Shown: piece after piece, positions 1,624 through 31,069 of the stretch
Position numbering within the stretch: the first letter of the stretch is position 1
Layout: every line of letters starts with the position of its first letter
Origin: Patescibacteria group bacterium
GTDB taxonomy: Bacteria; Patescibacteriota; Microgenomatia; 2-02-FULL-39-11
Direction: 5' to 3'
NCBI GenBank assembly: GCA_023379265.1
Contig: JAMCUI010000009.1
Coordinates: 36,091-100,090 of the forward strand
DNA: 64,000 nt
Notes under the pieces: model-generated
Database searches by the model: none
What the model saw: the letters and a program-made list of their open reading frames with translations, nothing else
What the model was told of the DNA's origin: nothing
Translations under genes and position numbers: made by a program

Positions 1624-1651
1624 GCCTCTCAAGAAAGAGAGGTTTTTTTTT
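1624..1651 (+). terminator. rho-independent terminator / attenuator of the ilv leader
   Basis: Hairpin gCCTCTC-aagaaa-GAGAGG followed by 9 T. Its 5' arm (cctctcaaga) can alternatively pair with upstream tcttgggagg (1572-1581). That element can in turn pair with cctctcaa (1535-1542), inside the BCAA codon run. This gives the classic 1:2/2:3/3:4 attenuator topology. Confidence 0.55.
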
Positions 1652-1756
1652 GAGAGTAGATGATACGAATTGAGTTGTGTTCTCACATATAGTGGGAATT
1701 TCCTAAGAAATTTCTATCTATGAACGACTTAATGATTAATGGTTAAATAATTAAGT

Positions 1757-6947: not shown

Positions 6948-8809
6948 TATCAGATGACCACTTCTATCATATAGAATGTTTCCTCTGTCATAAAAAGGTT
7001 AACGAAAAAGAAAATACTACCGTTTGCAGAAGTTGCGGCGGGCCTCTTGACGTTGTCTACGATTATTCAAAGCTAAAAGATGGAATGAATTTCTATGTGA
7101 TGCAAAATACCCCTCCTAAAACAATAAAATATCTTGATTTTTACCCTATAATTGATAGGAATAATTTAAGCTCGCTTGGTGAGGGGGGGACACAGCTCCA
7201 TAATTTGCCAAAACTTGGCAGTAAGTTAGGACTTTCCAGACTTTATCTGAAAAATGAAGGTCTCAATCCCACTGGAGCTTTTAAGGATAGAGGGAGTTTT
7301 GTAGAAATAAATAAGGCAAAAGAATTGGGTTTTAAGAGTGTTTGTGTTGCTTCAACCGGGAATATGGCAGCGTCTGTAGCGGCATATTCTGCTCAGGCAG
7401 GCTTGGAATGTTATGTGTTTGTGCCTGAAAATACTCCTCGCGGCAAATTAGCTCAGGCCATTTCTTATGGAGCGAGGGTAATCCAGGTGCGCGGTACTTA
7501 CTCTGATGCTTTTAATCTTACAGTAAAAGTTGCGGCTGAATTCGGTTATTACCTGGCTGGAGATTATGCTTTCAGAGGTGAAGGTCAGAAATCACTGGCA
7601 TTTGAAGTCTGCGAGCAGATGTGGTTTGGTAAAATTGATTGGGTAATAGTGCCTGTGGGAATGGGAACAAACTTATCTTATATTTGGAAAGGATTTAAGG
7701 AATATTTTGAGTTTGGTCTTATTTCCCAACTCCCGAAAATGGTGGCTGTTCAGGCGGAGGGAGCATCAACAATAGTAACAGCTTTTAGAACTCACTCTGA
7801 GATAAAGCCATTGGATAAACCCCAAACTATATGTTCTGCTATTGCCTGCGGAATGCCAATTGATTATCCCAAGGTACTCAAAGCTCTGAAAGAATCACAC
7901 GGGACAGCTATAGCAGTATCAGATGATGAAACGCTTTCCGCTCAACAGACTCTTGCTAAGATGGAAGCGCTATATATAGAGCCTTCATCAGCTACTTCGA
8001 TTGTAGCGCTTCAAAGACTGGTAAAACAGAAGATTATAAAAGAAAATGATGTAGTGGTTTGTGTGGCAACTGGAGCAGGTTTGAAAGATCCTGCTACAAC
8101 TCTCAAAGTCTTGGCTGATCCCCCCACTATCGAGCCGACACTTTCTGAAGCCTTAAAAGTGATAAAAAGCGGCATTCTGTCCCTTCGGGCAGGAGGAGTA
8201 GGTGATAAAGAAAAAGTTTTGTTTACCAGAGTACCCGGGGAGATCGAGTTGAAAAAAGTCATAAAGCATGAATTCAGACTGGAATTGGATATAGAATCGC
8301 TAAAAATAATCAAAAAAGTGATCAGTAAGTTTATTACCGTAAAAGGGAAAAATATCGTAAAAGCTGATCTTCAGTCAATAATAGAGACTATCATGCAGGA
8401 CGAGAGAAGAAAAAAGACACTGGACGTTTTGGATTTCAGAATCGAGACTTCCAAAAGAAATAAACCCAGGGCATATGTCAAAATTAGTCTGGACGGCCAC
8501 GAATTTGAAAACGAAAGCGAAGGAGTAGGACCAGTAGACGCAGCAATAAACGCAATATCCTCAATTATCAAACGCAAAAATGGAGGGGAATTCCGTCTTA
8601 CCGATTTTAACGTAGAGATACCCACAACAGGAAGCGATGCTACTGTAGAAGCAAGTATGGTCTTACAGCATGAGAATGGAACTCAAGTAATTGAGAAAGG
8701 TACATCTCCTGATATTATCGTGGCATCGATAGAAGCGTTTGAAAAAGGTTATAATGAGCTAGCATATCAGTTGAAAGAGCAATCTAAAAATAGCGCGAAG
8801 AAATCTTGA
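6932..8809 (+). CDS. threonine-synthase-like PLP enzyme (N-terminal zinc ribbon) fused to a C-terminal LeuA-dimer-type allosteric domain; possible 2-oxobutanoate-forming enzyme for Ile synthesis
   Basis: CxxC...CxxC ribbon at N-terminus. PLP-lysine motif LNPTGAFKDRG, typical of ThrC rather than IlvA (FKxRGA). The last ~100 aa align with the C-terminal regulatory domain of the LeuA encoded in this same window (EGVGPVDAAINAI vs [12 protein letters not shown]; GSDATVEASMV vs [11 protein letters not shown]; DIIVASIEAF vs [10 protein letters not shown]). Confidence 0.6.
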   Translation: MEEKMISDDHFYHIECFLCHKKVNEKENTTVCRSCGGPLDVVYDYSKLKDGMNFYVMQNTPPKTIKYLDFYPIIDRNNLSSLGEGGTQLHNLPKLGSKLGLSRLYLKNEGLNPTGAFKDRGSFVEINKAKELGFKSVCVASTGNMAASVAAYSAQAGLECYVFVPENTPRGKLAQAISYGARVIQVRGTYSDAFNLTVKVAAEFGYYLAGDYAFRGEGQKSLAFEVCEQMWFGKIDWVIVPVGMGTNLSYIWKGFKEYFEFGLISQLPKMVAVQAEGASTIVTAFRTHSEIKPLDKPQTICSAIACGMPIDYPKVLKALKESHGTAIAVSDDETLSAQQTLAKMEALYIEPSSATSIVALQRLVKQKIIKENDVVVCVATGAGLKDPATTLKVLADPPTIEPTLSEALKVIKSGILSLRAGGVGDKEKVLFTRVPGEIELKKVIKHEFRLELDIESLKIIKKVISKFITVKGKNIVKADLQSIIETIMQDERRKKTLDVLDFRIETSKRNKPRAYVKISLDGHEFENESEGVGPVDAAINAISSIIKRKNGGEFRLTDFNVEIPTTGSDATVEASMVLQHENGTQVIEKGTSPDIIVASIEAFEKGYNELAYQLKEQSKNSAKKS

Positions 8810-10625: not shown

Positions 10626-11699
10626 TTAGATATATGAGACTATTTTATCACCTGTCTCTTTTGTGCCCAAGATTTTATTTTCAGGCGTATTTTTGTCTTT
10701 TATATCGGGAGTGCGGTAGCCTGATTTGATAAATTTCTCAATAGCTTTTTCTACGATTTTTGCCTCGTCTCCCATCCGGAAACTAATCCTTAACATCATT
10801 ACTATAGAAAGGATGGTAGCCAGGGGGTTTGCAGTATTTTTTCCTGCCGCTTTATTGTAGGCACCATGGATTGGTTCAAATAGGGAATATTTTTTTCCTA
10901 TTGAAGCTGACGGAAGAAGGCCGATAGATCCGCTTATAACCGATGCTTCGTCAGTAAGGATATCCCCAAACATATTTTCTGTCAAAATGACATCAAATTG
11001 TGCCGGATTTTTAATAATTTGCATGGCGGCATTATCGACAAACATATGATTTAGTATTACTGATGGAAAACTTCGGGCAACTTTTTCCACAGTTTCCCGC
11101 CACAATCTTGATGTCTCAAGTACATTGGCTTTATCAACGCTCGTGACTCTTTTTTGGCGTTTTTGTGCAAGATTAAAGGCTACATTAGCAATATTTATGA
11201 CTTCTTCTTTTGAATAAATTGACGTGTCAACGGCAATATTCCCCTTATTTTTTCGCAACCTTGGTTGGCCGAAATAGATACCTCCAGTAAGTTCCCTAAC
11301 AACAACCATATCAACTCCTTCTACTCTTTCTTTTTTGAGCGGTGAGATTTCTGATAAGTTTTTAAATAGTATAATTGGACGGATGTTAGCAAAAAGTTCA
11401 AGAGATTTGCGCAATTTCAAAAGTCCCTGTTCGGGTCTTATTTTTGCTTCAGGGTTGTTGTCATATTTTGGATCTCCAATTGCGCCAAAAAGCACAGCAT
11501 CGGAACTTTTACAGAGTTTCAGAGTTTCAGATGGGAGCGGGCCGCCAGTCTTATCTATGGCAATACTACCTATAAGGCCTTCCTGAAAGATAAACTGGTG
11601 ATTGAATTTCTCTCCGACTTTTTTCAAGACTTTTACCGCTTCCCAGGTTACCTCCGGGCCTACACCGTCTCCAGCTAATAATGCAATTTTCTTTTTCAT
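10626..11699 (-). CDS. leuB: 3-isopropylmalate dehydrogenase
   Basis: 357 aa. N-terminal LLAGDGVGPEV and an isocitrate/IPM dehydrogenase fold. Last gene of the minus-strand leu operon. Confidence 0.9.
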   Translation of the reverse strand: MKKKIALLAGDGVGPEVTWEAVKVLKKVGEKFNHQFIFQEGLIGSIAIDKTGGPLPSETLKLCKSSDAVLFGAIGDPKYDNNPEAKIRPEQGLLKLRKSLELFANIRPIILFKNLSEISPLKKERVEGVDMVVVRELTGGIYFGQPRLRKNKGNIAVDTSIYSKEEVINIANVAFNLAQKRQKRVTSVDKANVLETSRLWRETVEKVARSFPSVILNHMFVDNAAMQIIKNPAQFDVILTENMFGDILTDEASVISGSIGLLPSASIGKKYSLFEPIHGAYNKAAGKNTANPLATILSIVMMLRISFRMGDEAKIVEKAIEKFIKSGYRTPDIKDKNTPENKILGTKETGDKIVSYI

Positions 11700-13597
11700 A
11701 GGTAAATTCTGGGATCAACTATCTTACCCGCGATTGCAGCAGCGGTGACTGTGACCGGTGAGGCCAGAAAAATCTTGGCTTCGCGGGAACCCATTCTGCC
11801 GATATAATTTCTGTTTGACGAAGATATCATTTGCGCTCCGGCTCCGACAACTCCCATGTGTTTACCAAAACATGGTCCACAGTTGGATGATTCGATATTG
11901 GCTCCGGCATCGGCAAAAAGCGTCAGTATGCCGTCTTTTAGCAGTCTGTTATAAACTTTTCTTGAGGCAGGTATTACTACAAAGTTTACCTGAGGATTTA
12001 CCTTCCTGTCTTTTATTACCTTTGCCGCCACCACAAAATCTTCATACCGGCCATTTGTGCAGGCTCCCAAAAAAGCATCTGTTATGTGAAGAGAATTGAC
12101 TCCGGCAAAATCCACATTTTTTGATTTTTGGGATTTACGCATATACTGATCTAGTTTACTTACAGGTGTGACATTTCCCGGTTTATGGGGGAATGCCACC
12201 ATCGGTTCAAGAGAGGATAAATCAATATTGATAATTTTTTCATAATTGCAGTTCCTATCAGGCATATAAGCTTTATAGGGATATTTGGCTCTTTTATCAA
12301 TATATTTTTTTAATATTTTGTCACACTCAAAAATTGCCGTCCTTGCCCCCATTTCAACAGCCATATTTGCTACAGTGGTTCTGGCATCCATGGAGAGAGA
12401 GGAGAGCGCTGGGCCACCAAACTCGACTATTCTTCTTGATGCTCCATCCACTCCCAATTTACCTATTAAATAAAGAATAATATCTTTGGAAAATGTACCC
12501 TTGCCAAGTTTCCCGTGAAGATTTACCCTGATTGTTTTTGGTACTTCAAAATCGTAGAGATATCCTGTGGGTAGAGCGAAACTTGCATCAGTGGTGCCGA
12601 CACCAAAAGCCAAGGTGTTTAGGGCTCCGCTGGTGTCAGTGTGCGAGTCCGTGCCCAGAATAATTTCTCCGGGAACGATTTGGCCATCTTCTATAAGGAC
12701 GACATGTTCTATCCCATCTCCCTCCTTGTAGCATTTGATCCCCTGATTTTTGGCAAACTTCTCCATAAAATCTATTCCTTCAGAAACTGCAACTGATGAG
12801 GAGGGGACAGTATGGTCTGGGATAAGAAATACTCTTTTTTTATCAAATACATGGAATTTCTTTTTGTTTTTTGCATATATGTCGGAGAAATTGGATAAAC
12901 TGTCATTTAGTGCTGGAGGTGCAATGACTTCATTGAAAAAAAGGATATCTATGGATAATTTTTCCAGCTTATCGCCTGCAGAAGCATCATATCCCAGATG
13001 GTCTGAAATTATTTTTTCGGCAATAGTCTTCGGTTTGGACGATTTTATATTTGTTCTGACAAAATCAATCTTCTTCCTGTCGGCTTTTTTCAATAATTCG
13101 GATAGATGATTTCTGATTCTTCCGATTTTTCCTCCAAGAATAAATGTTTTGGCTACCTCTTCATCCATTTTGAATCCAACTTTTTTTCTGCCGTTTATCT
13201 TTATTTCCTTTTTCTCAAGATTAATCGCAAGCCGATCCGATTTGTGAAATTGGATAATATCGTCCATTGTGATTAAGACAAGTCCGTTATTCAGACAGTT
13301 ACGGAAAAATATATCAGGATACGATTTGGCAATGATTGCTTTTACACCGTTTTCCTGCAACGCATAGACTGCCTGTTCTCGGGATGAGCCGCACCCAAAA
13401 TTTTCACCGGCTACAATTATGTTATTGTTCTCTTTATTGTTGAGGTTTACAAAATCTTTGTCATAATTGGCAAAAGCATATTTGGCAAAAAAAGACCGCT
13501 TTGTAGATTCCTGAAGTGTCCAAGCAGGAATTATATCATCAGTATTTATGTCGTCAGGAAAGATGGAAGTAATTTTCCCGGAAATATCGGTAATCAT
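11696..13597 (-). CDS. leuDC: 3-isopropylmalate dehydratase, single-chain fusion with small-subunit (LeuD) domain N-terminal and large-subunit (LeuC) domain C-terminal
   Basis: N-terminal ~180 aa carry LeuD motifs (IIVAGENFGCGSSREQAVYAL, IFFRNC). The remainder carries LeuC motifs (GTDSHTDTSGALN, SSNCGPCFGK, SSSNRNYIGRMG). Start set at the internal ATG 13597, 1 nt after the leuA stop; the ORF-track start 13621 would overlap leuA by 23 nt. Confidence 0.8.
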   Translation of the reverse strand: MITDISGKITSIFPDDINTDDIIPAWTLQESTKRSFFAKYAFANYDKDFVNLNNKENNNIIVAGENFGCGSSREQAVYALQENGVKAIIAKSYPDIFFRNCLNNGLVLITMDDIIQFHKSDRLAINLEKKEIKINGRKKVGFKMDEEVAKTFILGGKIGRIRNHLSELLKKADRKKIDFVRTNIKSSKPKTIAEKIISDHLGYDASAGDKLEKLSIDILFFNEVIAPPALNDSLSNFSDIYAKNKKKFHVFDKKRVFLIPDHTVPSSSVAVSEGIDFMEKFAKNQGIKCYKEGDGIEHVVLIEDGQIVPGEIILGTDSHTDTSGALNTLAFGVGTTDASFALPTGYLYDFEVPKTIRVNLHGKLGKGTFSKDIILYLIGKLGVDGASRRIVEFGGPALSSLSMDARTTVANMAVEMGARTAIFECDKILKKYIDKRAKYPYKAYMPDRNCNYEKIINIDLSSLEPMVAFPHKPGNVTPVSKLDQYMRKSQKSKNVDFAGVNSLHITDAFLGACTNGRYEDFVVAAKVIKDRKVNPQVNFVVIPASRKVYNRLLKDGILTLFADAGANIESSNCGPCFGKHMGVVGAGAQMISSSNRNYIGRMGSREAKIFLASPVTVTAAAIAGKIVDPRIYL

Positions 13598-13598
13598 A

Positions 13599-15110
13599 TC
13601 AGTGAATCTTATTAACAGCATCTATATAAGCCATTGCTGCAGCGACTATGGTGTCGGTGTGAATTCCTGAACCGAAAGATTCCTTTTTGCCGTTTTGCAC
13701 TCCCACGTATACTTTAGCCATGGCGTTTGATCCTATTGTGGCGGCCTGGATAAGAAATTGCGTCAGTTTGTGATTTTGACCGAGACAAGTGTCTATGGCA
13801 TTAAAACTGGCATCTATTGGGCCGTCACCGGTACCTGTAGCTTCCTTATTTTTTCCATCGACTGACAACCTTACGGTTGAAGTGGGAATATTTTTATTCC
13901 CTGAAATTGTTTGGATGAGCACGAGTTTTATTTTTTTGTGGTTTGTTTCATCTTTTTGGCCCATAAGATAATATAGATCCTCGTCATAAATTTCTTTTTT
14001 GATGTCAGCAAGTTTCAAAAATTCCTTATAGACAGAGTTCAATTTATCCTGTGTCAGATCAAAACCTATTTTTTCCAGCTTGTGACGAAGTGCTGCACGG
14101 CCTGATCGGGCTGTGAGAATAATTTTTGAAGAAGTCAATCCTACAGCCCTTGGGTCAATTATTTCGTAATTTTCCCTTCTTTTCAGTACTCCGTCTTGGT
14201 GTATTCCTGATGAATGGGAAAAAGCGTTGGCTCCGATTATGGCCTTATTCGGTTGGACAGGAATGCCCATAATCTGCGAAACCATCTGGCTGGTTTTGTA
14301 AATTTCGCCGGTCTTAATTCTTGTTGTATAAGACAGATAATCGCGTCGTGTGTAAAGCGCCATGATTACTTCCTCAAGTGAGGTATTTCCTGCTCTTTCG
14401 CCAATTCCGTTCATTGTTACCTCTACCTGTCTTGCTCCGTTAAAAACACCAAACAAAGTGTTGGCTGTAGCTACACCCAGATCATTATGACAATGTACAG
14501 AAATGATGGCTTTATCAATATTGGGTACATTTTTGGTGATATATTTTATTTTTTGGCCAAATTCTTCGGGAAAACAATAACCAGTGGTATCGGGAATATT
14601 GACGACTGTTGCTCCTGCAGTTATTACCTTCATAATCATTTCCGAAAGAAATTTATTATCTGCGCGTCCGGCATCTTCAGCATAAAATTCCACGTCAGAA
14701 ACAAATTTTTTGGCATACCGGACAGCCTCAATCGCCCTTTCTAGTATATCTTTTCGGTTTGATTTGAATTTGTACTTTATATGGACATCTGAGACACCGA
14801 TTCCGGTATGTATCCGGGGACTTTGTGCGTATTTAAGCGCTTTGGCGGCGCATTCTATATCTTCTTTTATGGCACGAGTCAGGCCGCAGACGGTACAGTT
14901 TCTGACTATTTTTGAGACAGCCACGATTGATTCAAAATCCCCAGGTGAAGAGATAGGAAATCCTGCTTCAATTATGTCCACTCCCAACTTTTCTAATTGT
15001 CTGGCCAATTCAACTTTTTGGGAAGTGTTCAATTTAGCCCCAGGTGACTGTTCGCCGTCACGCAGTGTTGTGTCAAAGACAAAGATTTTATTTTTCATGA
15101 AGTTTATCAA
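13599..15110 (-). CDS. leuA: 2-isopropylmalate synthase (or citramalate synthase) with C-terminal LeuA-dimer regulatory domain
   Basis: HMGL-like TIM barrel ([20 protein letters not shown]) plus a C-terminal allosteric domain ([14 protein letters not shown]). Start is TTG 15110 or ATG 15098. Confidence 0.85.
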
Positions 15111-23808: not shown

Positions 23809-25521
23809 ATGAAGAAGTGGATAATACTTGAAAAATCAGCATCCGGTCATAAAAAAGACATTCTGGGAATTCTTCTGGAAAATAGAAATATTTTCAGTGA
23901 GAAAGAAAAAAAGGAGTTTCTTCATCCAGAACTTTCCGATCTGACTCTGGAAAGCGTTAATCTTAAGGCCAAAGAATTGGAGAATGCTGCAAAACGGATA
24001 AAACTGGCGATTGAAAGAAAGGAATCGGTTACTGTTTATACGGATTATGACGCTGATGGGGTATGTGGGGGGGCGATAGTTTGGGAAACGCTTTACAAAT
24101 TGGGAGTGAAGACAATGCCTTATGTTCCGCATAGGGTGAATGAAGGTTATGGTTTGTCAAGAAAAGGGATTGACAAAATTATCGAACAATTTGGCACAAA
24201 ACTTATTGTGACAGTTGATCACGGGGTTACAGCGGTAAAAGAAGTCGCCTATGCCAAGGAAAAAGGCATTGACACGATTATACTGGATCATCATATACTC
24301 CCCAAAAAATTGCCGGATTCGGTAGCATTGATACACACGACTTCTCTTGCTTCAGGCGGACTTGCCTACTTTTTTTCCAATTTCCTTTCAAAACATCTCT
24401 ATTTCAGAAAAAATGACTTGAGTAAATCTGGTCAGATGGATAAAAGCAAACTTGATTTGGCAGCAATAGCCACAGTCGCTGATCTTGTTCCGCTTTTGGG
24501 CGCAAACAGGGTAATAGTGAAATACGGTATAGATGAGATTAAAAATACGCGCCGTGTAGGTTTGAGGTCTCTTATAAAGCAATCGGGTCTTGAAAATGGG
24601 GATGTGTCTACATATGAGATAGGGCACATTCTTGCTCCAAGGATAAATGCCATGGGCAGGTTGATGCACGCAATGGATGCGCTCAGGCTTTTATGCACTA
24701 AAGATATAGATAGGGCAGAGTCTTTGGCCAGAAAACTTTCTTCGACAAATAGGGAAAGACAAATACTTACGGAAAAAGCTTCTCTTCTGGCAATGGATAT
24801 CGTCAGAAACGAAAGGATTTATAAAAGCGAAAAAGGTAACAATCTGATTTTCGTGTCGCATAGTCAGTTCCAGGAAGGAATAATCGGACTTGTTGCGGGT
24901 AAACTGACAGAGACTTATTATCGTCCTTCAATAGTCGTGTCAGAGGGAAAGGAATATTCAAAAGCTTCAGCCAGATCAGTAATCGGATTGAATATTGTGG
25001 AAGTGATAAGGGAAGCGGGGGATTTGCTTGAGGATGCCGGGGGACACGCGATGGCGGCGGGTTTTACGGTAGCGACGAAAAATATAAATACGCTTAAAAA
25101 AAGATTAAATTCGGTTGTAGAGGAAAAACTTTCTGGAATAAAATTGGAAAGAACTCTTAAAATAGATGCGATTTTGACTCTTGATGAGATAACAGAGGAT
25201 TTTTATGAGAAAATAAACACACTTTCTCCATTTGGTGTGGGCAATCCTGAACCAGTATTTGCCGTAAAAAACGCAGAAATTGTTGGTTTGTCGTTGGTTG
25301 GTAGGGAACAGAAACATATAAAAATGTTCATGAGACAAAACGATGGAGGAATAATACATCAGGCTGTGGGTTTTGGGATGGGTGAGTTTTTTAATAAGCT
25401 TTATCCGCACAAATTGGTGGATATCGCTTTTTCAATAAACATAGACAGCTGGAATGGAAGTAAACGTTTGCAATTAAAACTTAAAGATGTTATCATCACG
25501 AGCAAATCGGAAATTGACTAA
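23809..25521 (+). CDS. recJ: single-stranded-DNA-specific exonuclease RecJ
   Basis: 570 aa. DHH (DYDADG, DHH) and DHHA1 (GGGH) motifs. Confidence 0.85.
   Translation: MKKWIILEKSASGHKKDILGILLENRNIFSEKEKKEFLHPELSDLTLESVNLKAKELENAAKRIKLAIERKESVTVYTDYDADGVCGGAIVWETLYKLGVKTMPYVPHRVNEGYGLSRKGIDKIIEQFGTKLIVTVDHGVTAVKEVAYAKEKGIDTIILDHHILPKKLPDSVALIHTTSLASGGLAYFFSNFLSKHLYFRKNDLSKSGQMDKSKLDLAAIATVADLVPLLGANRVIVKYGIDEIKNTRRVGLRSLIKQSGLENGDVSTYEIGHILAPRINAMGRLMHAMDALRLLCTKDIDRAESLARKLSSTNRERQILTEKASLLAMDIVRNERIYKSEKGNNLIFVSHSQFQEGIIGLVAGKLTETYYRPSIVVSEGKEYSKASARSVIGLNIVEVIREAGDLLEDAGGHAMAAGFTVATKNINTLKKRLNSVVEEKLSGIKLERTLKIDAILTLDEITEDFYEKINTLSPFGVGNPEPVFAVKNAEIVGLSLVGREQKHIKMFMRQNDGGIIHQAVGFGMGEFFNKLYPHKLVDIAFSINIDSWNGSKRLQLKLKDVIITSKSEID
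25468..25496 (+). promoter_or_regulatory. candidate promoter (TTGCAA-17-TATCAT) inside the 3' end of recJ, feeding the T-box leader
   Basis: Hexamers with a 17-nt spacer. The predicted TSS is ~25503. Confidence 0.3.
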
Positions 25522-25529
25522 AAGCTGTA

Positions 25530-25750
25530 ATGGCGACGACACGTCATAGTTAGATTTCTCTAACAAGCTGCAGGAAGAAATCCATATAGACGGAAATTAG
25601 ATCCTTGCCGGGTATGCCCGTGACAGCTGGAATAAGTAGTTGTGAGTCGTGTTATGAAATGTAATTTTTAATAACTCATCACACACCACTCATAACCAAA
25701 ATAAGGTGGTATCGTGATAATCTCACCCTTAGAAAAAGGTGAGATTTTTT
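25530..25750 (+). promoter_or_regulatory. T-box riboswitch-like leader, predicted Asp specificity, ending in a terminator 60 nt upstream of the PEPC gene
   Basis: T-box-like AGGTGGTATCGTG at 25704-25716. Canonical antiterminator can be drawn: A1 TAAGG/CCTTA, 7-nt bulge UGGUAUC (consensus UGGNACC), A2 GTGA-taatc-TCAC. It competes with terminator ATCTCACC-cttagaaaaa-GGTGAGAT-TTTTTT (25720-25750). Candidate specifier GAC followed by A at 25622-25625, on the 3' side of a possible stem I (AGCTG / CAGCT). Confidence 0.5.
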
Positions 25751-25812
25751 ATGGGTAAAATCTTAGACTATATGGTTATACAACATTCAGAAGATTTAGA
25801 GCTGGTGTTACC

Positions 25813-27327
25813 ATGGCCACTATAAACCGTAAAATCTCAGCTTGCATGGCCACGCAGCATCCGGATAATGCTGCGAGGCCTTACTGGAATCCAAGGCCTT
25901 TTATATCAACAAGCGCTGAGATAAAAGAAAGTTACCTGAATTTTTCTGATCTTTCTATAGATGAGTATAATTGGGATTGGGAAGGGAAATTTGTGGATGA
26001 GGCGGTCATAGATAAGCTTCTGCACCGTTATTTCAATTACTTCCAAAAACACCCGATAGGGAAGGACAAACTTCTTACATTCAGGATTCCAAATCCCAGA
26101 GTGGAAAAGCAATTTAGGTTGGCTAGGGCTTTTATGGTAATTATCACGAGCAGCCAGCTGGCTCGGAGTCTGGGTTTTTCTTCACCACCAATTTTTGAAA
26201 CAATTCTTCCTTTGACGGAAACCGCAGAAGAAATCGCAGAGATTCAGGAAGCTTTCAAAGACTTGATTAGTGTAAATCACAGGCTTTTGAACATGAAGGA
26301 CTCGTTGCAATATTTGGAAATAATCCCTCTTTTTGAACAAGTGGGTAAGATTGCCGGGTCTGCCGGAATTCTGAAAAAATATATAGCATTGCACAAAAAG
26401 ATGTTTGGGTACAAACCCAAATATATAAGGCCTTATTGTGCAAGGAGCGACCCGGCGCTAAACTCTGGGCTTATACCGACGATATTATCTCTAAAAGTAG
26501 CATTATCCTCCTACTTGAAGCTGGAAGAGGATACTGATGTGAGGCTTTTTCCTATGTTGGGAACAGGTTCGTTGCCGTTTAGAGGAGGACTTAGTCCTGA
26601 CAGATTGGATATTGCATTATCTGAATATGCTGGAGTACGCACGTTGACTATACAAAGCGCTTTCAGATACGACTATCCCAAACACGATGTGAAACTTGCC
26701 ATTGAGAGGCTGAATAACGAATTGCATCATAGAAAAGCAAAGCGACTGGATAAGACAAGTGTAGACGTCATACAAAGAACCATTCCTCTTTTTGAGAAGC
26801 CCTACAGGAATTCGATAGAACAGGCAGCAGGAATGATAAATGTTTTAAGCAGGCAAGTAGCCAAAAGAAGAGAAAGGATGCTTCATATAGGACTCTTCGG
26901 ATACTCAAGAGGCGTTGGTCATGTTAGTTTGCCGAGAGCTATTCCGTTTACAGCGTCCTTATATTCATTGGGTGTGCCTCCTGAATTGATAGGGACAGGA
27001 AGAGGTATAAAAGAGGCAAAGAAAAAAGGCTTATGGGAAAAATCTTCACAGTATTATCTTCATATTAAAGAAGACTTGCTTCATGCAGGTAATTTCCTGA
27101 ATAAGCAGAATTTATCCCGTCTTGCAAAGCACAGTTCCTTCTGGTATGACGTAGAAGAAGATGTTAAAGAGATCGAAAAAGAATTGGGAATAGTACTTGG
27201 TCCTGGTAATTCCACACAGCTAGAACATTACAATCTTGTGGAAAAAATTTATAAGAAGATTATGGAAGGTAATGATGTTTCAAAACTGATTACTTACGGC
27301 GGTTTATTGAGGCAAAGTTTGGGTTGA
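25813..27327 (+). CDS. archaeal-type phosphoenolpyruvate carboxylase (PepcA family)
   Basis: 504 aa, begins MATINRKISACMATQHPDNA. This matches the characteristic N-terminal MxTQHPDN signature and size (~500-540 aa) of atPEPC, which is unrelated in length to bacterial Ppc (~900 aa). Confidence 0.65.
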   Translation: MATINRKISACMATQHPDNAARPYWNPRPFISTSAEIKESYLNFSDLSIDEYNWDWEGKFVDEAVIDKLLHRYFNYFQKHPIGKDKLLTFRIPNPRVEKQFRLARAFMVIITSSQLARSLGFSSPPIFETILPLTETAEEIAEIQEAFKDLISVNHRLLNMKDSLQYLEIIPLFEQVGKIAGSAGILKKYIALHKKMFGYKPKYIRPYCARSDPALNSGLIPTILSLKVALSSYLKLEEDTDVRLFPMLGTGSLPFRGGLSPDRLDIALSEYAGVRTLTIQSAFRYDYPKHDVKLAIERLNNELHHRKAKRLDKTSVDVIQRTIPLFEKPYRNSIEQAAGMINVLSRQVAKRRERMLHIGLFGYSRGVGHVSLPRAIPFTASLYSLGVPPELIGTGRGIKEAKKKGLWEKSSQYYLHIKEDLLHAGNFLNKQNLSRLAKHSSFWYDVEEDVKEIEKELGIVLGPGNSTQLEHYNLVEKIYKKIMEGNDVSKLITYGGLLRQSLG

Positions 27328-27421
27328 GATAAATTATGGCTTGGGTGTAGGAGTAGTTTCGTATATAATTGGTAGAGATTATCAAAGACCTGCTTTTTAT
27401 AAAATAAAAGGAGGAATAAAT

Positions 27422-28618
27422 ATGAAAAAAGTCTCTGTCTCAAAAAGGGCAGCAAATACGCCCGCTTCTGCCATAAGAAAACTGGTGCCTTTGGCTGACG
27501 CAGCAAAAAAAAGAGGCATTAAAGTTTACCATGTGAATATAGGCCAACCTGACCTACCAACCCCTGATCCAATACTTTCGGCAATAAGGCATTTTAAGGA
27601 ATCTACTATAGAATATGCTCCATCAACTGGTGTATATGAGACTATGGAGGCATGGAAAAAGTTTTATAGTGATAAGGGAATAAAATTTGATGCCTCTGAC
27701 ATACTGGTGACAAGTGGAGGTTCGGAAGGTCTGATTTTCGCCTTTCTTACAGTGGCAGATCCGGGGGATGAATTAATAGTCTTTGAGCCTTTTTATACGA
27801 GCTACGCCATAATTGCTGCAATGGGCAATATAAAGTTGAAAGCAGTTAGGACAAAGGTGGAAGACGGTTTTCATCTTCCGCCTAAAGCAGCAATTGAGAA
27901 AGCAATTACATCAAGAACTAAAGGGATTGTAGTGTGCAATCCGAATAATCCTACCGGTACTCTCTATACGGATGCGGAAGTGAAAATGATTGCAGAGTTG
28001 GCTCTTAAACACAATCTTTTTATCATTTCTGACGAAACCTATCAGGAGTTAGTCTTTGATGGGAAAAAAGTATTGCCGTTTGCCTCATTTCCCAAACTTG
28101 CAAACCAGTTGGTTGTGACGGATAGCGTTTCTAAACGTTTTAATAGCTGTGGAGTGAGGATAGGTTGTGTCGTGAGTAAGAATAAGGAAGTAATGCAGTC
28201 AATTTTAAGGTTTGCCCAGGGAAGATTGTCTGTAGCCACAGTCGAGCAGATGGCTCTTATCCCTATGCTGTTAAATCATAAGCCTTATGTCGCCAAGATA
28301 AGGAAACTTTATGAGAGTAGAAGGGATACGGTGGTGCGTGAGCTGAAAAGAATTCCAGGCGTGACAGCCGTCGCGCCCGAAGGAGCTTTTTATATAATTC
28401 CCAAGCTTCCTATAAAAGATAGTGATGACTTTGCATCATACCTTCTTAGTGATTTTTCTGATCGGAAAGAGACGGTTATGGTGGCGCCAGCAACAGGTTT
28501 CTATGCTACACCTGGGTTGGGTAGCAACGAGATTAGAATTGCCTATGTGTTAGAGGAAAAGAAGCTTGAAAGGGCAATAGAGTTATTGGGTTTGGCAATC
28601 AAAAAATACAACCGTTAA
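27422..28618 (+). CDS. aspC: aspartate aminotransferase (class I/II PLP aminotransferase)
   Basis: Start ATG 27422 with RBS aaaggagga. Aminotransferase class I motifs include SVSKRFNSCGVRIG (PLP-Lys region). The ORF-track start 27341 is upstream extension. Confidence 0.8.
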   Translation: MKKVSVSKRAANTPASAIRKLVPLADAAKKRGIKVYHVNIGQPDLPTPDPILSAIRHFKESTIEYAPSTGVYETMEAWKKFYSDKGIKFDASDILVTSGGSEGLIFAFLTVADPGDELIVFEPFYTSYAIIAAMGNIKLKAVRTKVEDGFHLPPKAAIEKAITSRTKGIVVCNPNNPTGTLYTDAEVKMIAELALKHNLFIISDETYQELVFDGKKVLPFASFPKLANQLVVTDSVSKRFNSCGVRIGCVVSKNKEVMQSILRFAQGRLSVATVEQMALIPMLLNHKPYVAKIRKLYESRRDTVVRELKRIPGVTAVAPEGAFYIIPKLPIKDSDDFASYLLSDFSDRKETVMVAPATGFYATPGLGSNEIRIAYVLEEKKLERAIELLGLAIKKYNR

Positions 28619-28692
28619 ACTTTCTCTAATTTCAAAATATCTATTTATCAGGTTTTAGTATTAGTGGTTTTTTTAATTTACTATTTATTTTT

Positions 28693-30069
28693 ATGTTGAG
28701 GGTACTTATAAAAGATACGGTCGGCAAAATTGGTGAAGAAGTGACTTTATACGGCTGGGTGAATGCCGTGAGAGATCACGGTAAAATCACTTTTATCGAT
28801 TTGAGAGACAGTTCGGGTATAGTACAGGCTGTAGATGCTAAAGGACTGGCTAAAGTGTCAGCAGAAAGTGTGGTAAGGATTGTAGGATTAATCAAGGCAC
28901 GTCCTGAAAAAATGGTGAACCCAAATATAGAAACGGGGAAAGTTGAGATTGAGATAAAATCTTTTGATGTTTTGTCCAAATCACAGGAGTTACCTTTTCC
29001 TATTGATGGTGATGGTTATGATATCAACGAGGAGGTAAGACTGAAGTATAGATATTTGGATTTGAGACGGAAAAGATTGAATAGGAATATAAGATTGCGC
29101 TCACAATTTGTCCAAAATATAAGAAATTTCCTATTCTCAAATAACTTTTTAGAGGTCGAGACTCCCCTTTTGTCGCAGTCAACACCTGAAGGTTCAAGAG
29201 ATTTCCTTGTTCCATCTAGACTTCAGCCTGGCAATTTTTATGCTTTACCCCAATCTCCGCAACAATATAAGCAGCTTCTGATGGTTGCGGGAATGGAAAG
29301 ATATTTTCAGATTGCCAGATGTATGAGAGATGAGGATTTGCGTGCCGACCGAGGGTTTGAGCATACGCAGATTGATATCGAGATGAGTTTTGTGGAAAGA
29401 GAAGATGTGATGAATATACTGGAGAAAATGATTACAGAAGTGATGGAAAAAATGGGACAAAAGATAAAGAAGAAACCTTTTCCAGTATTTACATATAAAG
29501 AAGCGATGGAAAAATTTAAGTCTGACAAATTTGATTTGAGAACAGAGGAGGAAAAGAAAGAAAGTGTGAAAGCTTTTGCCTGGGTGATTGATTTTCCTTT
29601 TTTTGAAAAGGATAAAGAGGGCAAATGGACGTTTACTCATAATCCTTTTTCCAATCCTATGCCGGAGTATGTTAGTGATTTATTGCAGAAGAAAAATATA
29701 GAAGGTATTCTGACAAGCCAATACGATCTTGTTTGTAACGGTTTTGAAGTGGGAGGCGGCAGTATTAGATCTCACGATCCCCAAATATTAGAATCCGTTT
29801 TTGAAGTAATGGGTTATAAAAAGGACGAGATAAAACAAAAGTTTGGACATATGCTGACAGCTTTCAGCTACGGAACTCCTCCTCATGGAGGATGCGCTTT
29901 TGGTGTTGACCGTCTTATGATGATTTTGACTGGTGAACAGTATTTGCGTGAAGTAGTAGCTTTTCCGATGACTTCAGGTGGAAGGACAGCTGTTATGGAT
30001 GCACCATCTCCAGTGAGTCCTACTCAACTTAGGGAATTAGGATTATCCCTTCGCAAAAGTGAAAAGTAA
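28693..30069 (+). CDS. aspS: aspartate--tRNA ligase, compact 458-aa form lacking the GAD insertion domain
   Basis: N-terminal OB anticodon-binding domain. Class IIb motifs FYALPQSPQQYKQLL, MRDEDLRADR, GGGSIRSHD and GFGVDRLMM. Length is far below the bacterial ~590 aa. Confidence 0.8.
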   Translation: MLRVLIKDTVGKIGEEVTLYGWVNAVRDHGKITFIDLRDSSGIVQAVDAKGLAKVSAESVVRIVGLIKARPEKMVNPNIETGKVEIEIKSFDVLSKSQELPFPIDGDGYDINEEVRLKYRYLDLRRKRLNRNIRLRSQFVQNIRNFLFSNNFLEVETPLLSQSTPEGSRDFLVPSRLQPGNFYALPQSPQQYKQLLMVAGMERYFQIARCMRDEDLRADRGFEHTQIDIEMSFVEREDVMNILEKMITEVMEKMGQKIKKKPFPVFTYKEAMEKFKSDKFDLRTEEEKKESVKAFAWVIDFPFFEKDKEGKWTFTHNPFSNPMPEYVSDLLQKKNIEGILTSQYDLVCNGFEVGGGSIRSHDPQILESVFEVMGYKKDEIKQKFGHMLTAFSYGTPPHGGCAFGVDRLMMILTGEQYLREVVAFPMTSGGRTAVMDAPSPVSPTQLRELGLSLRKSEK

Positions 30070-30100
30070 TCAAATTGAAGACTTTCAAGATAAGCCAGTA

Positions 30101-31069
30101 ATGACAAAACTTTCTAGAAAAAAATCCCCTAAAAAAAATTTTTGGAGGATAATATATTTTACTCTTTTTACTTTAGTTTTGTTTCTTTTTCCTGCGCCAA
30201 ATATTTATTTTCAGACTGTTGCTGATACAGGCGGTCTCTACTTGCCGCAAAATATAAAATTGCCTCCTCCACCAGCCTATCCGGTCATGGTTGGCAATCC
30301 TATACCCCCAGTAGTGACGGCCCAAGGGGTGTATATTGTGGATATACCCTCAAAAGTTGTACTTTACCAGAAAAATCCAGACGAAGAGTTTCTTCCAGCA
30401 TCTACTACAAAAATAGCAACAGTTCTAGTTGCTCTGGATCATTACCGTTTGGATGATGTCTTGAAAGTGAACACAGTTATAACAGATGGTAGCGTAATGG
30501 GTTTAGTACATGACGAGCAGATTACTGTTGAGTCACTTCTTTATGGAGCGCTTGTGGAGTCCGGAAATGATGCTGCATACACACTCGCAGAGAATTATCC
30601 TGGAGGGGTATCGAATTTTGTAGACATGATGAATAAAAAGGCACAGGAATTACATCTTTCCCATACTCATTTTGCCAATCCCATTGGTTTTGACGATCCG
30701 CCAAATTACACAACTCCTTCCGATTTAGCCAAGTTGGCTATGGCAGCTCTTCATAATAAAACATTTACAAAGATTATCGGTATCAAAAATATTACCGTTT
30801 CAGATGTGACTTATACCTATTTCCATTCACTGACAAACGTAAACCAATTATTGGGGAAAATTCAGGGGGTAGCAGGGGTTAAAACCGGTTATACCCAAAA
30901 TGCAGGTGAGATATTGGTTTCTGAGGTAAAAAAGAATGGACATTCGGTACTCTTTGTTATATTAAAAAGTGATGACAGGTTTGGTGAGACGACTCAACTG
31001 ATAAATTGGATTTTTAACAATTTCGGATGGAAAAATATAGAATCAGTGGTTCCGACCGGTTCGTCTTAA
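30101..31069 (+). CDS. D-alanyl-D-alanine carboxypeptidase (serine-type, PBP5/DacF family)
   Basis: N-terminal TM, then SxxK (ASTTK), SGN (ESGNDAA) and KTG (KTGYT) motifs. Start taken at the internal ATG 30101 to avoid overlap with aspS; the ORF-track start is 30059. Confidence 0.7.
   Translation: MTKLSRKKSPKKNFWRIIYFTLFTLVLFLFPAPNIYFQTVADTGGLYLPQNIKLPPPPAYPVMVGNPIPPVVTAQGVYIVDIPSKVVLYQKNPDEEFLPASTTKIATVLVALDHYRLDDVLKVNTVITDGSVMGLVHDEQITVESLLYGALVESGNDAAYTLAENYPGGVSNFVDMMNKKAQELHLSHTHFANPIGFDDPPNYTTPSDLAKLAMAALHNKTFTKIIGIKNITVSDVTYTYFHSLTNVNQLLGKIQGVAGVKTGYTQNAGEILVSEVKKNGHSVLFVILKSDDRFGETTQLINWIFNNFGWKNIESVVPTGSS

What the first reader, a model, noticed from the sequence alone, without database searches (positions are those of the whole stretch)
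25468..25750. T-box riboswitch-like leader with GAC (Asp) specifier upstream of an archaeal-PEPC / AspAT / AspRS operon
The ~230-nt region between recJ and the PEPC gene ends in a strong intrinsic terminator (ATCTCACC/GGTGAGAT + T6) 60 nt before the ATG.

Antiterminator: just upstream is AGGTGGTATCGTG, close to the T-box consensus AGGGUGGNACCGCG. The textbook antiterminator can be drawn exactly: helix A1 TAAGG/CCTTA, 7-nt bulge UGGUAUC (UGGNACC; UGGU can pair with the tRNA NCCA end), and helix A2 GTGA/TCAC. It is mutually exclusive with the terminator.

Specifier: a GAC followed by A lies on the 3' side of a possible stem I.

Inference: an Asp-tRNA-sensing T-box would coherently control oxaloacetate supply (PEPC), transamination to aspartate, and Asp-tRNA charging in a single transcription unit. 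That is an unusual extension of T-box control to an anaplerotic carboxylase.
Basis: partly seen in the sequence, partly recalled or inferred. Interest (0 to 1): 0.6.

Follow-up and report, generated by a model that had tools for sequence, protein, structure and literature searches.

The report
Minimal aspartate T-box riboswitch in Patescibacteria
The leader is a genuine tRNA-sensing T-box RNA switch that reads tRNA-Asp and sits ahead of genes that make aspartate and load it onto tRNA, but it is a stripped-down form from an ultrasmall candidate-phyla-radiation bacterium that scores below the standard detection threshold and lacks parts described as important or indispensable in textbook T-boxes.

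Summary
Window 25522-25750 holds a T-box sequence, an antiterminator with a UGGUAUC bulge, a mutually exclusive terminator with six U, and a GAC+A specifier.

The Rfam T-box model (RF00230) scores only 32.6 bits against a gathering score of 93, because Stem I is truncated. The window comes from Candidatus Gottesmanbacteria (CPR/Patescibacteria).

The same leader precedes PEPC-aminotransferase-AspRS in 11 distinct Gottesmanbacteria loci, all with GACA in the apical loop of a short Stem I. Two other Microgenomates carry the same architecture ahead of AspRS with AACA (Asn) instead.

Covariation supports Stem I, Stem II and helix A2: 96% of cells are paired and 10 of 17 pairs show compensatory changes. 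A covariance model built without the window finds 25516-25631 at 71.5 bits (E = 2e-17).

The decoding architecture matches the short-Stem-I "class III" T-boxes known from actinobacterial ileS, which control translation. Here it is joined to an intrinsic terminator. The canonical G.U wobble at the base of helix A2 is a Watson-Crick pair in all 13 leaders, and five relatives have no Stem III.

The most likely mechanism is tRNA-Asp-dependent transcription attenuation. I rate it a new variant of a known kind. I found no report of T-boxes in CPR, or of PEPC under T-box control, in the held literature.

The parts
25468..25496 (+). Promoter-like site inside the 3' end of recJ: TTGCAA, 17 nt, TATCAT, with TG upstream of the -10 hexamer. 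Function uncertain.
   Evidence: The same TTGCAA-N17-TAnnAT arrangement occurs in all T-box-bearing loci. It also occurs in T-box-less loci, where it encodes the conserved RecJ C-terminus (LQLKLKDV), so the conservation cannot be attributed to promoter function.
25522..25750 (+). Whole T-box leader, from just after the recJ stop codon (25519-25521) to the end of the terminator U-run.
   Evidence: RF00230 aligns over its full length at 25518-25733, 32.6 bits. Custom model R1 scores 71.5 bits at 25516-25631. Fold z-score is -2.7.
25523..25569 (+). Stem I domain. Basal helix AGC 25523-25525 with GCU 25567-25569. Specifier hairpin 25530-25547. Extra hairpin GUUAGA/UCUAAC 25549-25564, which forms a three-way junction where relatives have a K-turn.
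   Evidence: the basal helix is 100% paired with 2 of 3 pairs covarying, and the hairpin is 92% paired with 3 of 5 pairs covarying. An extra hairpin at the same place, with a different sequence, occurs in L001, L004, L010 and L040.
25538..25541 (+). Specifier GAC (Asp codon) plus the conserved 3' purine A, in the apical loop ACGACA (25536-25541).
   Evidence: GACA is invariant in 11 of 11 Gottesmanbacteria leaders while the other loop positions vary. AACA occupies the same position in L040 and L051.
25570..25608 (+). Stem II. Basal helix GCAGG/CCUUGC. Purine-rich internal loop AAGAAA (25575-25580) opposite AAUUAGA (25595-25601), which is S-turn-like. Distal helix UCC/GGA.
   Evidence: All 5 basal pairs show compensatory changes and 95% of cells are paired. 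AAGAAA / A(G/U)UAGA is conserved and aligns to the GAA/AGUA positions of RF00230.
25609..25623 (+). Stem IIA hairpin CGGG-UAUG-CCCG (25609-25620) and the F-box-like CCGUGA (25618-25623).
   Evidence: Invariant in 13 leaders. Aligns to the IIA/F-box columns of RF00230. No IIB pseudoknot partner could be identified.
25624..25701 (+). Linker carrying the conserved AAG (RAG-like, 25634-25636), Stem III (GUUGUGA 25639-25645 with UCAUAAC 25690-25696, variable interior), and an A-rich 3' flank.
   Evidence: this segment folds to -18.5 kcal/mol in the window. Stem III varies from 0 to about 140 nt among relatives.
25702..25731 (+). Antiterminator. Helix A1 25702-25706/25727-25731, T-box bulge UGGUAUC 25707-25713, helix A2 25714-25717/25723-25726, loop 25718-25722.
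   Evidence: 100% of cells are paired and 4 of 5 A2 pairs have compensatory changes (L006, L017). The UGGN position is U in 11 leaders and C in 2 (L017, L051).
25720..25750 (+). Intrinsic terminator: AUCUCACC 25720-25727 with GGUGAGAU 25738-25745, then the U-run 25745-25750. The 3' strand also carries the SD-like AGGUGA (25737-25742).
   Evidence: -11.1 kcal/mol. A hairpin followed by 5-8 U is present in all 13 leaders. In the T-box-less loci inspected, no U-run precedes PEPC, except the L011 deletion remnant.
25751..25825 (+). Small ORF (24 codons) in a 60-nt spacer found only in the window and L001. It starts where PEPC starts in most relatives and ends overlapping the PEPC ATG. Significance unknown.
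   Evidence: In L001 the start is TTG and the 3' half has diverged. There is no evidence that it is translated.
25813..31069 (+). Downstream transcription unit: archaeal-type PEPC 25813-27327; aminotransferase 27341-28618 (the likely true start is ATG 27422, preceded by AAGGAGG); AspRS 28693-30069; D-Ala-D-Ala carboxypeptidase 30059-31069.
   Evidence: No terminator-like site on the + strand between 27250 and 31300. The order recJ-PEPC-AT-AspRS-Dac is conserved in most of the Gottesmanbacteria loci.

Best explanation
This is a tRNA-Asp-responsive T-box riboswitch of the short-Stem-I type. It controls a PEPC / aminotransferase / AspRS (and D-Ala-D-Ala carboxypeptidase) operon in a Candidatus Gottesmanbacteria (CPR) genome, mainly by transcription attenuation.

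Inferred mechanism, by homology to characterised T-boxes:
- The GUC anticodon of tRNA-Asp pairs with GAC 25538-25540 in the apical loop of Stem I.
- The purine-rich S-turn of Stem II (25575-25580 / 25595-25601) buttresses that duplex.
- The IIA hairpin and linker position the discriminator domain.
- If the tRNA is uncharged, its 3' GCCA end pairs with UGGU 25707-25710 and stabilises the otherwise weaker antiterminator (25702-25731), so RNA polymerase reads through into PEPC.
- If the tRNA is charged, the stronger terminator (25720-25750) forms and transcription stops at the U-run.

Low Asp-tRNA charging would therefore raise oxaloacetate supply, transamination to aspartate and AspRS together.

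What is shown: the sequence elements, their conservation and covariation, the mutual exclusivity of the two folds, the gene content, and the existence of a matching tRNA-Asp.

What is inferred: tRNA binding, sensing of charging, termination in vivo, and the aspartate specificity of the aminotransferase.
For: 1. T-box core, bulge, A1/A2 and competing terminator are present at the stated coordinates.
2. RF00230 aligns over its full length in the window and in 9 relatives at 24-56 bits (E down to 1.7e-9), always at the same place.
3. Eleven distinct Gottesmanbacteria leaders precede PEPC, whose protein is 59-97% identical to the window's.
4. Covariation in the decoding half: 96.4% of cells paired against 23-46% in slid controls; 10 of 17 pairs with changes on both sides; 0 of 500 shuffles reach the observed score.
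5. Covariation in the antiterminator: 100% paired, 4 compensatory pairs. L006 rewrites helix A2 and the terminator together.
6. A covariance model built without the window and L001 finds 25516-25631 at 71.5 bits, E = 2.3e-17. It finds only the 13 known leaders in 416 kb.
7. GACA is invariant in the loop while its neighbours vary. The only alternative seen is AACA (Asn), ahead of AspRS in two other Microgenomates. This is the pattern expected of a specifier.
8. tRNA-Asp(GUC) with G73 and no encoded CCA lies on a contig carrying a leader identical to L018. The UGGN base is only ever U or C.
9. A hairpin plus 5-8 U is present in all 13 leaders. In the T-box-less loci inspected, no U-run precedes PEPC, except the L011 deletion remnant.
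10. In the window the PEPC ATG lies 62 nt beyond the terminator, so sequestration of a ribosome-binding site cannot be the main control here.
Against: - No hit reaches Rfam's gathering score: 32.6 bits against 93.
- The elbow-binding distal part of Stem I is absent. A review reports that transcriptional T-boxes generally require it for fast tRNA capture (PMC7583486).
- The base of helix A2 is G-C here (A-U in L006 and L040), not the conserved G.U wobble described as the main steric sensor of the aminoacyl group (PMC7583486).
- In the window the K-turn consensus (GA/GA) is replaced by AA/UA plus an extra hairpin.
- The IIB pseudoknot could not be identified.
- About half of the related loci lack the leader entirely, so the operon can function without it.
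- No transcript, binding or reporter data exist, and the promoter is uncertain.
Confidence: 0.85

Rival explanations
1. It is a purely translational T-box, as in actinobacterial ileS. On this reading the hairpin at 25720-25745 is a sequestrator of a Shine-Dalgarno sequence, and the U-run is only an AT-rich spacer before the start codon.
For: All previously described short-Stem-I T-boxes act on translation (PMC7583486, PMC10482949). The 3' strand of the hairpin carries SD-like AGGUGA, GAGGUGA or AAGGA. In 9 of 13 leaders a start codon follows the U-run within 0-8 nt. In the window an ATG at 25751 sits 9 nt after AGGUGA.
Against: In the window, L001, L004 and L051 the real start codon is 15-62 nt further on, and in L004 and the window it has its own SD-like sequence. 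A run of 5-8 U directly abuts a G+C-rich stem in all 13 leaders; among the T-box-less loci inspected only the L011 deletion remnant has a U-run before PEPC. The hairpin is 6-9 kcal/mol more stable than the antiterminator, as in attenuators. A dual mode (termination plus SD masking) in the relatives is not excluded.
Confidence: 0.08
2. It is a decaying or non-sensing relic. The leader keeps the T-box shape but no longer discriminates charged from uncharged tRNA, because the G.U sensor, the elbow-binding motif and the K-turn are lost. It would then act as a constitutive partial terminator, or respond only to tRNA abundance.
For: The G.U wobble is replaced by a Watson-Crick pair in 13 of 13 leaders, Stem III is missing in 5, and the window's K-turn is degenerate. 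Sister lineages have deleted the leader repeatedly.
Against: Purifying selection is strong across lineages whose PEPC proteins share only about 60% identity: invariant GACA, T-box bulge, IIA/F-box and S-turn purines, plus compensatory changes in four helices. The specifier changes to AAC exactly where the downstream operon changes. The A2 base pair itself covaries (G-C to A-U), which argues for a selected geometry rather than decay.
Confidence: 0.05
3. The specifier is not GAC. The leader might read another tRNA, for example through the overlapping ACA (Thr) triplet in the same loop, or through the second GACA at 25622-25625.
For: ACA at 25539-25541 is as invariant as GAC among the 11 Gottesmanbacteria leaders. 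A second GACA exists in the window.
Against: ACA would be followed by C, A or U rather than the conserved purine. In L040 and L051 the loop reads AACA, so the variable base is the first of GAC/AAC, which fits Asp/Asn ahead of AspRS. The second GACA is GAUA or AAUA in relatives. The downstream genes are aspartate-related.
Confidence: 0.02

Closest known systems
Short-Stem-I ('class III', ultrashort) T-box riboswitches of actinobacterial ileS (Mycobacterium, Nocardia; PMC10482949, PMC7583486, PMC11297988)
   Same: Truncated Stem I with no elbow-binding double T-loop motif. Specifier plus 3' purine in a 5-7 nt apical loop. Stem I joined to a Stem II that carries a purine-rich S-turn. IIA hairpin with F-box. 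RAG-type purines before the discriminator. A UGGN bulge flanked by helices A1 and A2.
   Different: - The known ones are Ile-specific, in Actinobacteria, and regulate translation through an SD sequestrator. This one is Asp-specific (Asn in two relatives), occurs in CPR Microgenomates, and ends in a hairpin plus U-run terminator.
- The IIA loop is only 4-5 nt and no IIB pseudoknot pairing was found.
- The base of A2 is Watson-Crick.
- Stem III is absent in 5 of 13 leaders.
- The window has a three-way junction in place of the K-turn.
Canonical transcriptional T-box leaders of Firmicutes (Rfam RF00230; e.g. B. subtilis tyrS, glyQS)
   Same: T-box sequence (AAGGUGGUAUCGUG against the consensus AGGGUGGNACCGCG). 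A 7-nt bulge that pairs with the tRNA NCCA end. Mutually exclusive antiterminator and terminator. Stem II, IIA and F-box. A specifier followed by a purine. Control of an aminoacyl-tRNA synthetase and of synthesis of the cognate amino acid.
   Different: - No long Stem I, specifier internal loop, AG bulge or distal loop; the RF00230 alignment leaves 34 nt in the window against about 86 model positions of Stem I.
- The score is far below the gathering threshold.
- G-C replaces the G.U wobble at the base of A2.
- The phylum lies outside the reported range of Firmicutes, Actinobacteria, Chloroflexi, Deinococcus-Thermus and Geobacter (PMC3766115).
Asp-specific T-box regulons of Firmicutes (hisS-aspS, glnQHMP; PMC3766115 additional file 2, PMC2494555)
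   Same: A GAC-type specifier that controls aspS.
   Different: The operon here begins with an archaeal-type PEP carboxylase and an aminotransferase. Neither ppc nor aspB/aspC appears among the T-box-regulated genes tabulated in PMC3766115.

Membership tests
T-box leader (RF00230) | Conserved T-box sequence AGGGUGGNACCGCG | tested here: met
   AAGGUGGUAUCGUG at 25704-25717, which is 11 of 14 consensus positions. Relatives read AAGGUGGUACCGUG.
T-box leader (RF00230) | Antiterminator: helices A1 and A2 flanking a 7-nt bulge that begins with UGGN | tested here: met
   Window 25702-25731. Cells are 100% paired across 11 leaders, with 4 compensatory pairs in A2.
T-box leader (RF00230) | A mutually exclusive terminator (or sequestrator) that uses the 3' strands of A1 and A2 | tested here: met
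   Terminator 25720-25745 plus U6. It overlaps 25723-25731. Energies are -11.1 against -4.6 kcal/mol.
T-box leader (RF00230) | Specifier codon followed by a purine, matching the downstream gene | tested here: met
   GAC+A at 25538-25541, invariant in 11 leaders ahead of PEPC-AT-AspRS. AAC+A in 2 leaders ahead of AspRS.
T-box leader (RF00230) | Long Stem I with a specifier internal loop, AG bulge and distal loop (elbow-binding motif) | tested here: not met
   Stem I is an 18-nt hairpin. In the RF00230 alignment only 34 nt of the window lie where the model has about 86 Stem I positions. The same holds in all relatives.
T-box leader (RF00230) | K-turn (GA motif) at the base of Stem I | tested here: not met
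   The window has AA...UA plus an inserted hairpin at 25549-25564. A consensus GA/GA K-turn is present in L013, L017, L018, L022, L023 and L028.
T-box leader (RF00230) | Stem II with S-turn, then Stem IIA/B pseudoknot and F-box | tested here: inconclusive
   The Stem II helix covaries in 5 of 5 pairs. AAGAAA / AUUAGA, the IIA hairpin and CCGUGA are conserved. No IIB pairing could be found for the 4-nt loop.
T-box leader (RF00230) | Stem III flanked by conserved purines (RRRxG ... AA) | tested here: met
   The window has AAG at 25634-25636, Stem III at 25639-25696 and an A-rich 3' flank. Five relatives have no Stem III at all.
T-box leader (RF00230) | G.U wobble at the base of helix A2 (steric sensor; PMC7583486) | tested here: not met
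   G25714-C25726 in the window. The pair is G-C in 11 leaders and A-U in 2; none has G.U.
T-box leader (RF00230) | Score at or above Rfam's gathering threshold | tested here: not met
   32.6 bits against 93. Relatives score 24-56 bits.
T-box leader (RF00230) | Binds the cognate uncharged tRNA and rejects the charged form | not testable with these tools
   Only compatibility can be shown: tRNA-Asp GUC with G73, from a contig carrying a leader identical to L018.
Class III (short Stem I) T-box | Short Stem I without the elbow-binding motif; specifier in a 5-6 nt apical loop | tested here: met
   The loop ACGACA (6 nt) is closed by GGCG/CGUC. Relatives have loops of about 5-8 nt.
Class III (short Stem I) T-box | Stem II domain present next to Stem I | tested here: met
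   Stem II at 25570-25608 directly follows the Stem I basal helix.
Class III (short Stem I) T-box | Translational control through SD sequestration, with no terminator | tested here: not met
   A hairpin plus U5-U8 is present in 13 of 13 leaders. The window's start codon lies 62 nt downstream.

The most novel reading that the evidence does not exclude
Microgenomates (CPR) may carry their own lineage of minimal T-boxes. These would sense tRNA during transcription using only an anticodon-loop-like Stem I hairpin plus Stem II. They would do so without the elbow-binding motif, often without Stem III, and with a Watson-Crick pair where other T-boxes have the G.U aminoacyl sensor. That would be a different structural solution for capturing a tRNA quickly and reading its charging state. 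The lineage also switches between Asp and Asn specifiers according to whether AspRS is coupled to de novo aspartate synthesis.
Probability: 0.3. Interest if true: 0.8.

Novelty: new variant of a known kind. Interest (0 to 1): 0.65.

Why it matters
1. It would extend T-box regulation to the candidate phyla radiation. The reported distribution is Firmicutes, Actinobacteria, Chloroflexi, Deinococcus-Thermus and Geobacter (PMC3766115). I found no paper that links T-boxes with CPR or Patescibacteria.

2. It shows that threshold-based Rfam annotation misses a whole subclass: all 13 leaders score 24-56 bits against a cut-off of 93. [quoted passage not shown]

3. It joins a short Stem I to an intrinsic terminator. 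This goes against the working rule that transcriptional T-boxes need the long, elbow-binding Stem I for fast tRNA capture (PMC7583486). The Stem-III-less, G.U-less versions, about 135 nt long, are natural minimal designs for testing what a T-box really requires.

4. Physiologically, it places an anaplerotic carboxylase and a transaminase under control of tRNA-Asp charging, in an organism type usually thought to have little biosynthesis or regulation.

Tried and rejected
- **Rfam at gathering threshold, whole window:** no hit. I did not take this as a refutation, because the sub-threshold hit spans the full model and is reproduced in relatives.
- **Long Stem I from the MFE fold** (AGCUGU 25523-25528 with ACAGCU 25623-25628, putting the second GACA on its 3' side): rejected. 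The 3' sequence is GAUAGC or AAUAGC in relatives and belongs to the F-box/linker.
- **Reading the CGGG hairpin as Stem III:** rejected. It precedes the RAG purines and carries the F-box.
- **IIB pseudoknot:** no register gives consistent pairing.
- **Promoter inside recJ:** the conservation cannot be separated from the RecJ C-terminal coding constraint, since the same motif occurs in T-box-less loci.
- **Other T-boxes:** none elsewhere in the window or in T-box-less loci.
- **AspRS upstream regions in 8 further distinct Microgenomates loci** (L039, L042/L043, L044-L050): no T-box.
- **Viral-contig scan with the IIA/F-box pattern:** 3 hits, none a T-box.
- **tRNA genes:** none in the window or most loci; only one tRNA-Asp was found.
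- **Papers not held:** Sherwood 2015, Vitreschak 2008 and Gutierrez-Preciado 2009. The known Asp regulon therefore rests on PMC3766115 and PMC2494555.
Full report
**1. What is in the sequence**

Between the recJ stop codon (25519-25521) and the PEPC start (25813) lies a 291-nt spacer.
- Helix A1 is UAAGG 25702-25706 with CCUUA 25727-25731.
- The bulge is UGGUAUC 25707-25713.
- Helix A2 is GUGA 25714-25717 with UCAC 25723-25726.
- The terminator is AUCUCACC 25720-25727 with GGUGAGAU 25738-25745, followed by a U-run to 25750.
- The terminator reuses the 3' strands of A1 and A2, so the two folds exclude each other.
- The terminator is the more stable fold: -11.1 against -4.6 kcal/mol. This is the usual arrangement for a T-box, where the antiterminator needs the tRNA to hold it.

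The flanking genes are RecJ, an archaeal-type PEP carboxylase (TIGR02751, 461 bits), a class I/II aminotransferase (PRK07568), a bacterial-type AspRS without the GAD insert, and a D-Ala-D-Ala carboxypeptidase. There is no terminator-like site on the + strand within that gene string.

**2. The Rfam test**

At gathering thresholds nothing in the window matches any Rfam family. With E-value reporting, RF00230 aligns over its whole length to 25518-25733, but at 32.6 bits against a gathering score of 93. E is 1.4e-5 for the local search and 0.0017 for the whole window, and it is the only T-box hit.

The alignment explains the shortfall. Only 34 nt of the window lie where the model has about 86 Stem I positions. 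Stem II, the IIA hairpin with F-box, Stem III and the antiterminator all align.

**3. Where the window comes from, and relatives**

The PEPC protein retrieves 18 genome loci. Ten are labelled Candidatus Gottesmanbacteria and one Candidatus Roizmanbacteria; the other seven are labelled 'uncultured Gammaproteobacteria' in their record titles but share the locus organisation. L001 is 97% identical. A further 20 loci came from metagenomes.

The order recJ-PEPC-aminotransferase-AspRS-carboxypeptidase is conserved. In about half of the loci recJ abuts PEPC and there is no leader. In the rest a 170-380-nt spacer carries AAGGTGGTACCGTGA plus a hairpin and U-run. That gives 11 distinct leaders including the window. 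RF00230 hits each of those tested at 34-56 bits, always sub-threshold, and hits none of the leader-less loci.

**4. Architecture of the decoding half**

Aligning the 5' halves shows the following elements.
- A basal helix (window AGC 25523-25525 with GCU 25567-25569).
- A short hairpin (25530-25547) whose loop always contains GACA (window 25538-25541), while the other loop bases vary.
- A Stem II with a conserved purine-rich internal loop (AAGAAA opposite A(G/U)UAGA).
- An invariant hairpin CGGG-NNNN-CCCG, followed by GU(A/G)A(C/U)AGC.

In six relatives the junction between the basal helix and the hairpin is a consensus K-turn (bulge, then GA opposite GA). In the window, L001, L004 and L010 a hairpin is inserted at that point (window 25549-25564), forming a three-way junction.

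Pair counts:
- 96.2% of cells are paired, against 22-43% when the partners are slid.
- 10 of 17 pairs have changes on both sides.
- All five basal pairs of Stem II covary.

For the antiterminator, 100% of cells are paired and four A2 pairs show compensatory changes. L006 rewrites GUGAG/CUCAC as ACGGU/ACCGU, and changes its terminator to match.

**5. An independent test for the window**

I built a covariance model of the decoding half from 11 relatives, leaving out the window and its near-twin L001. With filters off it finds 25516-25631 at 71.5 bits, E = 2.3e-17. The next best hit in the 64 kb scores 17.8 bits. Across 416 kb of held sequence it finds exactly the 13 leaders. On the resulting alignment, 96.4% of cells pair and 10 of 17 pairs are compensatory.

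**6. Specifier and tRNA**

The loop reads ACGACA, CUGACA, CCAGACA, CCCGACA, UUGACA and so on. Only GAC plus the following A is fixed.

Sampling the upstream regions of AspRS homologues in other Microgenomates gave two more leaders of the same architecture.
- L040/L041 (Microgenomates bacterium GW2011_GWA2_47_8) carries one directly ahead of AspRS.
- L051 carries one ahead of two unknown genes, an Asp/Glu-racemase-family gene and AspRS.
- In both, the loop is AUAACAA, which is AAC (Asn) plus A.

A base that changes only between GAC and AAC, in step with the downstream genes, is what a specifier should do. It also excludes the overlapping ACA frame.

One tRNA-Asp gene was found, on a contig (L038) that carries a leader identical to L018. 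It has anticodon GUC, discriminator G73 and no encoded CCA. The variable base of the UGGN bulge is U in 11 leaders and C in 2, and both can pair with G73.

**7. How it most likely works**

By homology with characterised T-boxes (PMC7583486, PMC10482949, PMC11297988):
- Uncharged tRNA-Asp pairs its anticodon with the Stem I loop, and the Stem II S-turn supports that duplex.
- Its 3' end pairs with UGGU, which stabilises the antiterminator, so transcription continues.
- Charged tRNA cannot complete this, and the terminator forms.

I favour transcription attenuation for three reasons. A G+C-rich hairpin directly followed by 5-8 U is present in all 13 leaders. Among the leader-less loci inspected, no such U-run precedes PEPC, apart from the L011 deletion remnant. 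In the window the PEPC ATG lies 62 nt beyond the terminator.

In 9 of 13 relatives the start codon follows the U-run within 0-8 nt, and an SD-like GGUGA or AAGGA lies in the 3' strand of the hairpin. Masking of the ribosome-binding site may therefore add to termination in those relatives.

All steps involving tRNA are inferred, not shown.

**8. Comparison with what is known**

The decoding half matches the 'class III' T-boxes: short Stem I without the elbow-binding motif, specifier in a penta- or hexanucleotide apical loop, and dependence on Stem II (PMC10482949). Those are ileS leaders of Actinobacteria that regulate translation (PMC7583486). The review states that transcriptional T-boxes generally require the long Stem I.

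The leaders found here differ in six ways.
- Phylum: CPR Microgenomates.
- Specificity: Asp or Asn.
- A terminator with a U-run.
- A Watson-Crick pair (G-C in 11, A-U in 2) where the conserved G.U wobble at the base of helix A2 is described as the primary sensor of the 3'-aminoacyl group.
- Complete absence of Stem III in five relatives. These have a constant 23-24-nt unstructured purine-rich linker, although Stem III is described as indispensable (PMC7583486).
- A 4-5-nt IIA loop for which I found no pseudoknot partner.

On regulon content, the Asp T-box regulons tabulated for Firmicutes are hisS-aspS and a transporter. Neither ppc nor aspB/aspC occurs among the listed T-box targets (PMC3766115 supplements).

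On distribution, the reported range is Firmicutes, Actinobacteria, Chloroflexi, Deinococcus-Thermus and Geobacter (PMC3766115). [quoted passage not shown] Full-text searches pairing T-box with CPR or Patescibacteria returned nothing. That is absence from the held library, not proof of absence.

**9. Evolution**

On a rough PEPC neighbour-joining tree, leaders with and without the T-box are interleaved, including apparent sister pairs. L011 keeps only the last bases of the terminator 3' strand and the U-run of its sister L013 (CTGAGGTTTTTTATGAG against GTGAGATTTTTTTATGAG). This looks like a clean deletion. Repeated loss from an ancestral leader is therefore more likely than repeated gain.

**10. 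Verdict**

- The element is a new variant of a known kind. It is not a new mechanism, but it is an unreported lineage and architecture that conflicts with several current generalisations about T-boxes.
- Confidence that it is a functional tRNA-Asp T-box is about 0.85.
- Confidence that transcription termination is the main output in this window is about 0.75.

Noticed in passing
window 1412-1756 (+), upstream of ilvD 1757-3475 and ilvB 3488-5215: A strong promoter (TTGACA, 17 nt, TATATA), then a 31-codon ORF starting at GTG 1503 that is rich in Val/Ile/Leu (MLSFPTLSVVILSIIVLVIGQGFSWEAGFRN), then an intrinsic terminator (GCCUCUC...GAGAGG plus U9, about 1624-1652). It looks like a leader-peptide attenuator for a branched-chain amino-acid operon in a CPR genome. 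The weak Rfam hit BTnc231 at 1515-1649 probably reflects this structure.
   Followed up: partly
L040 5755-6000 and L051 856-1070: The same short-Stem-I T-box class occurs ahead of AspRS in other Microgenomates, but with an AAC (Asn) specifier. These AspRS genes carry an inserted YbaK-type domain, and PEPC is absent. This suggests that AspRS serves tRNA-Asn charging there.
   Followed up: partly
window 28693-30069; homologues P0011, P0015, P0114 and others: The window's AspRS is bacterial-type but lacks the ~120-residue GAD insertion (458 aa). Many close homologues (about 610-650 aa) instead carry a PF04073 (YbaK / tRNA_edit) domain, which is an unusual architecture for AspRS.
   Followed up: no
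window 25714/25726; same columns in all 13 leaders: The base pair at the bottom of helix A2 is G-C (A-U in L006 and L040) instead of the conserved G.U wobble that is held to sense the aminoacyl group. The pair covaries as a Watson-Crick pair.
   Followed up: partly
L004 3390-3413, L010 3920-3943, L013 3915-3938, L022 2927-2949, L028 2921-2944: Five leaders have no Stem III. A 23-24-nt unstructured purine-rich linker joins the IIA hairpin to the T-box (MFE 0.0).
   Followed up: partly
L011 3975-4003 versus L013 3825-4003: The leader-less L011 retains only the tail of the terminator 3' strand and the U-run of its sister L013, which indicates loss of the T-box by deletion. Presence and absence are interleaved on the PEPC tree.
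   Followed up: partly
window 25751-25825: A 24-codon ORF fills a 60-nt spacer found only in the window and L001. It begins right after the U-run, where PEPC starts in most relatives, and ends overlapping the PEPC ATG. In L001 the start is TTG and the 3' half differs.
   Followed up: partly
window 25613-25616 and 25625-25629; alignment A4 columns 194-197 and 207-211: Position 3 of the IIA loop and the variable base of the linker AGC[N]G are correlated as U/U or A/A in 9 of 13 leaders, so they are not complementary. The cause could be phylogeny or a tertiary contact.
   Followed up: no
window 25468-25496 and the recJ 3' ends of all loci: TTGCAA-N17-TAnnAT with an upstream TG coincides with the codons for the conserved RecJ C-terminus (LQLKLKDV). 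It also occurs in leader-less loci, where it would give PEPC an almost leaderless mRNA.
   Followed up: partly
window 6932-8809, 11696-13621 (-), 56245-57633: Three features: a threonine synthase fused to a LeuA-type C-terminal domain; a fused LeuD-LeuC protein (small subunit first); and a RuBisCO large-subunit homologue that scores below the NCBIfam cut-offs for both form III and the general family. Together with ilvD, ilvB and leuA, this is an unusually biosynthesis-rich stretch for a CPR genome.
   Followed up: no
L038 2959-5633: In one metagenome contig with a leader identical to L018, PEPC stops after about 84 residues. It is followed by a 296-aa ORF of unknown function, possibly mobile-element-derived, and further on by tRNA-Asp(GUC) on the opposite strand. 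L024 has the intact gene.
   Followed up: no
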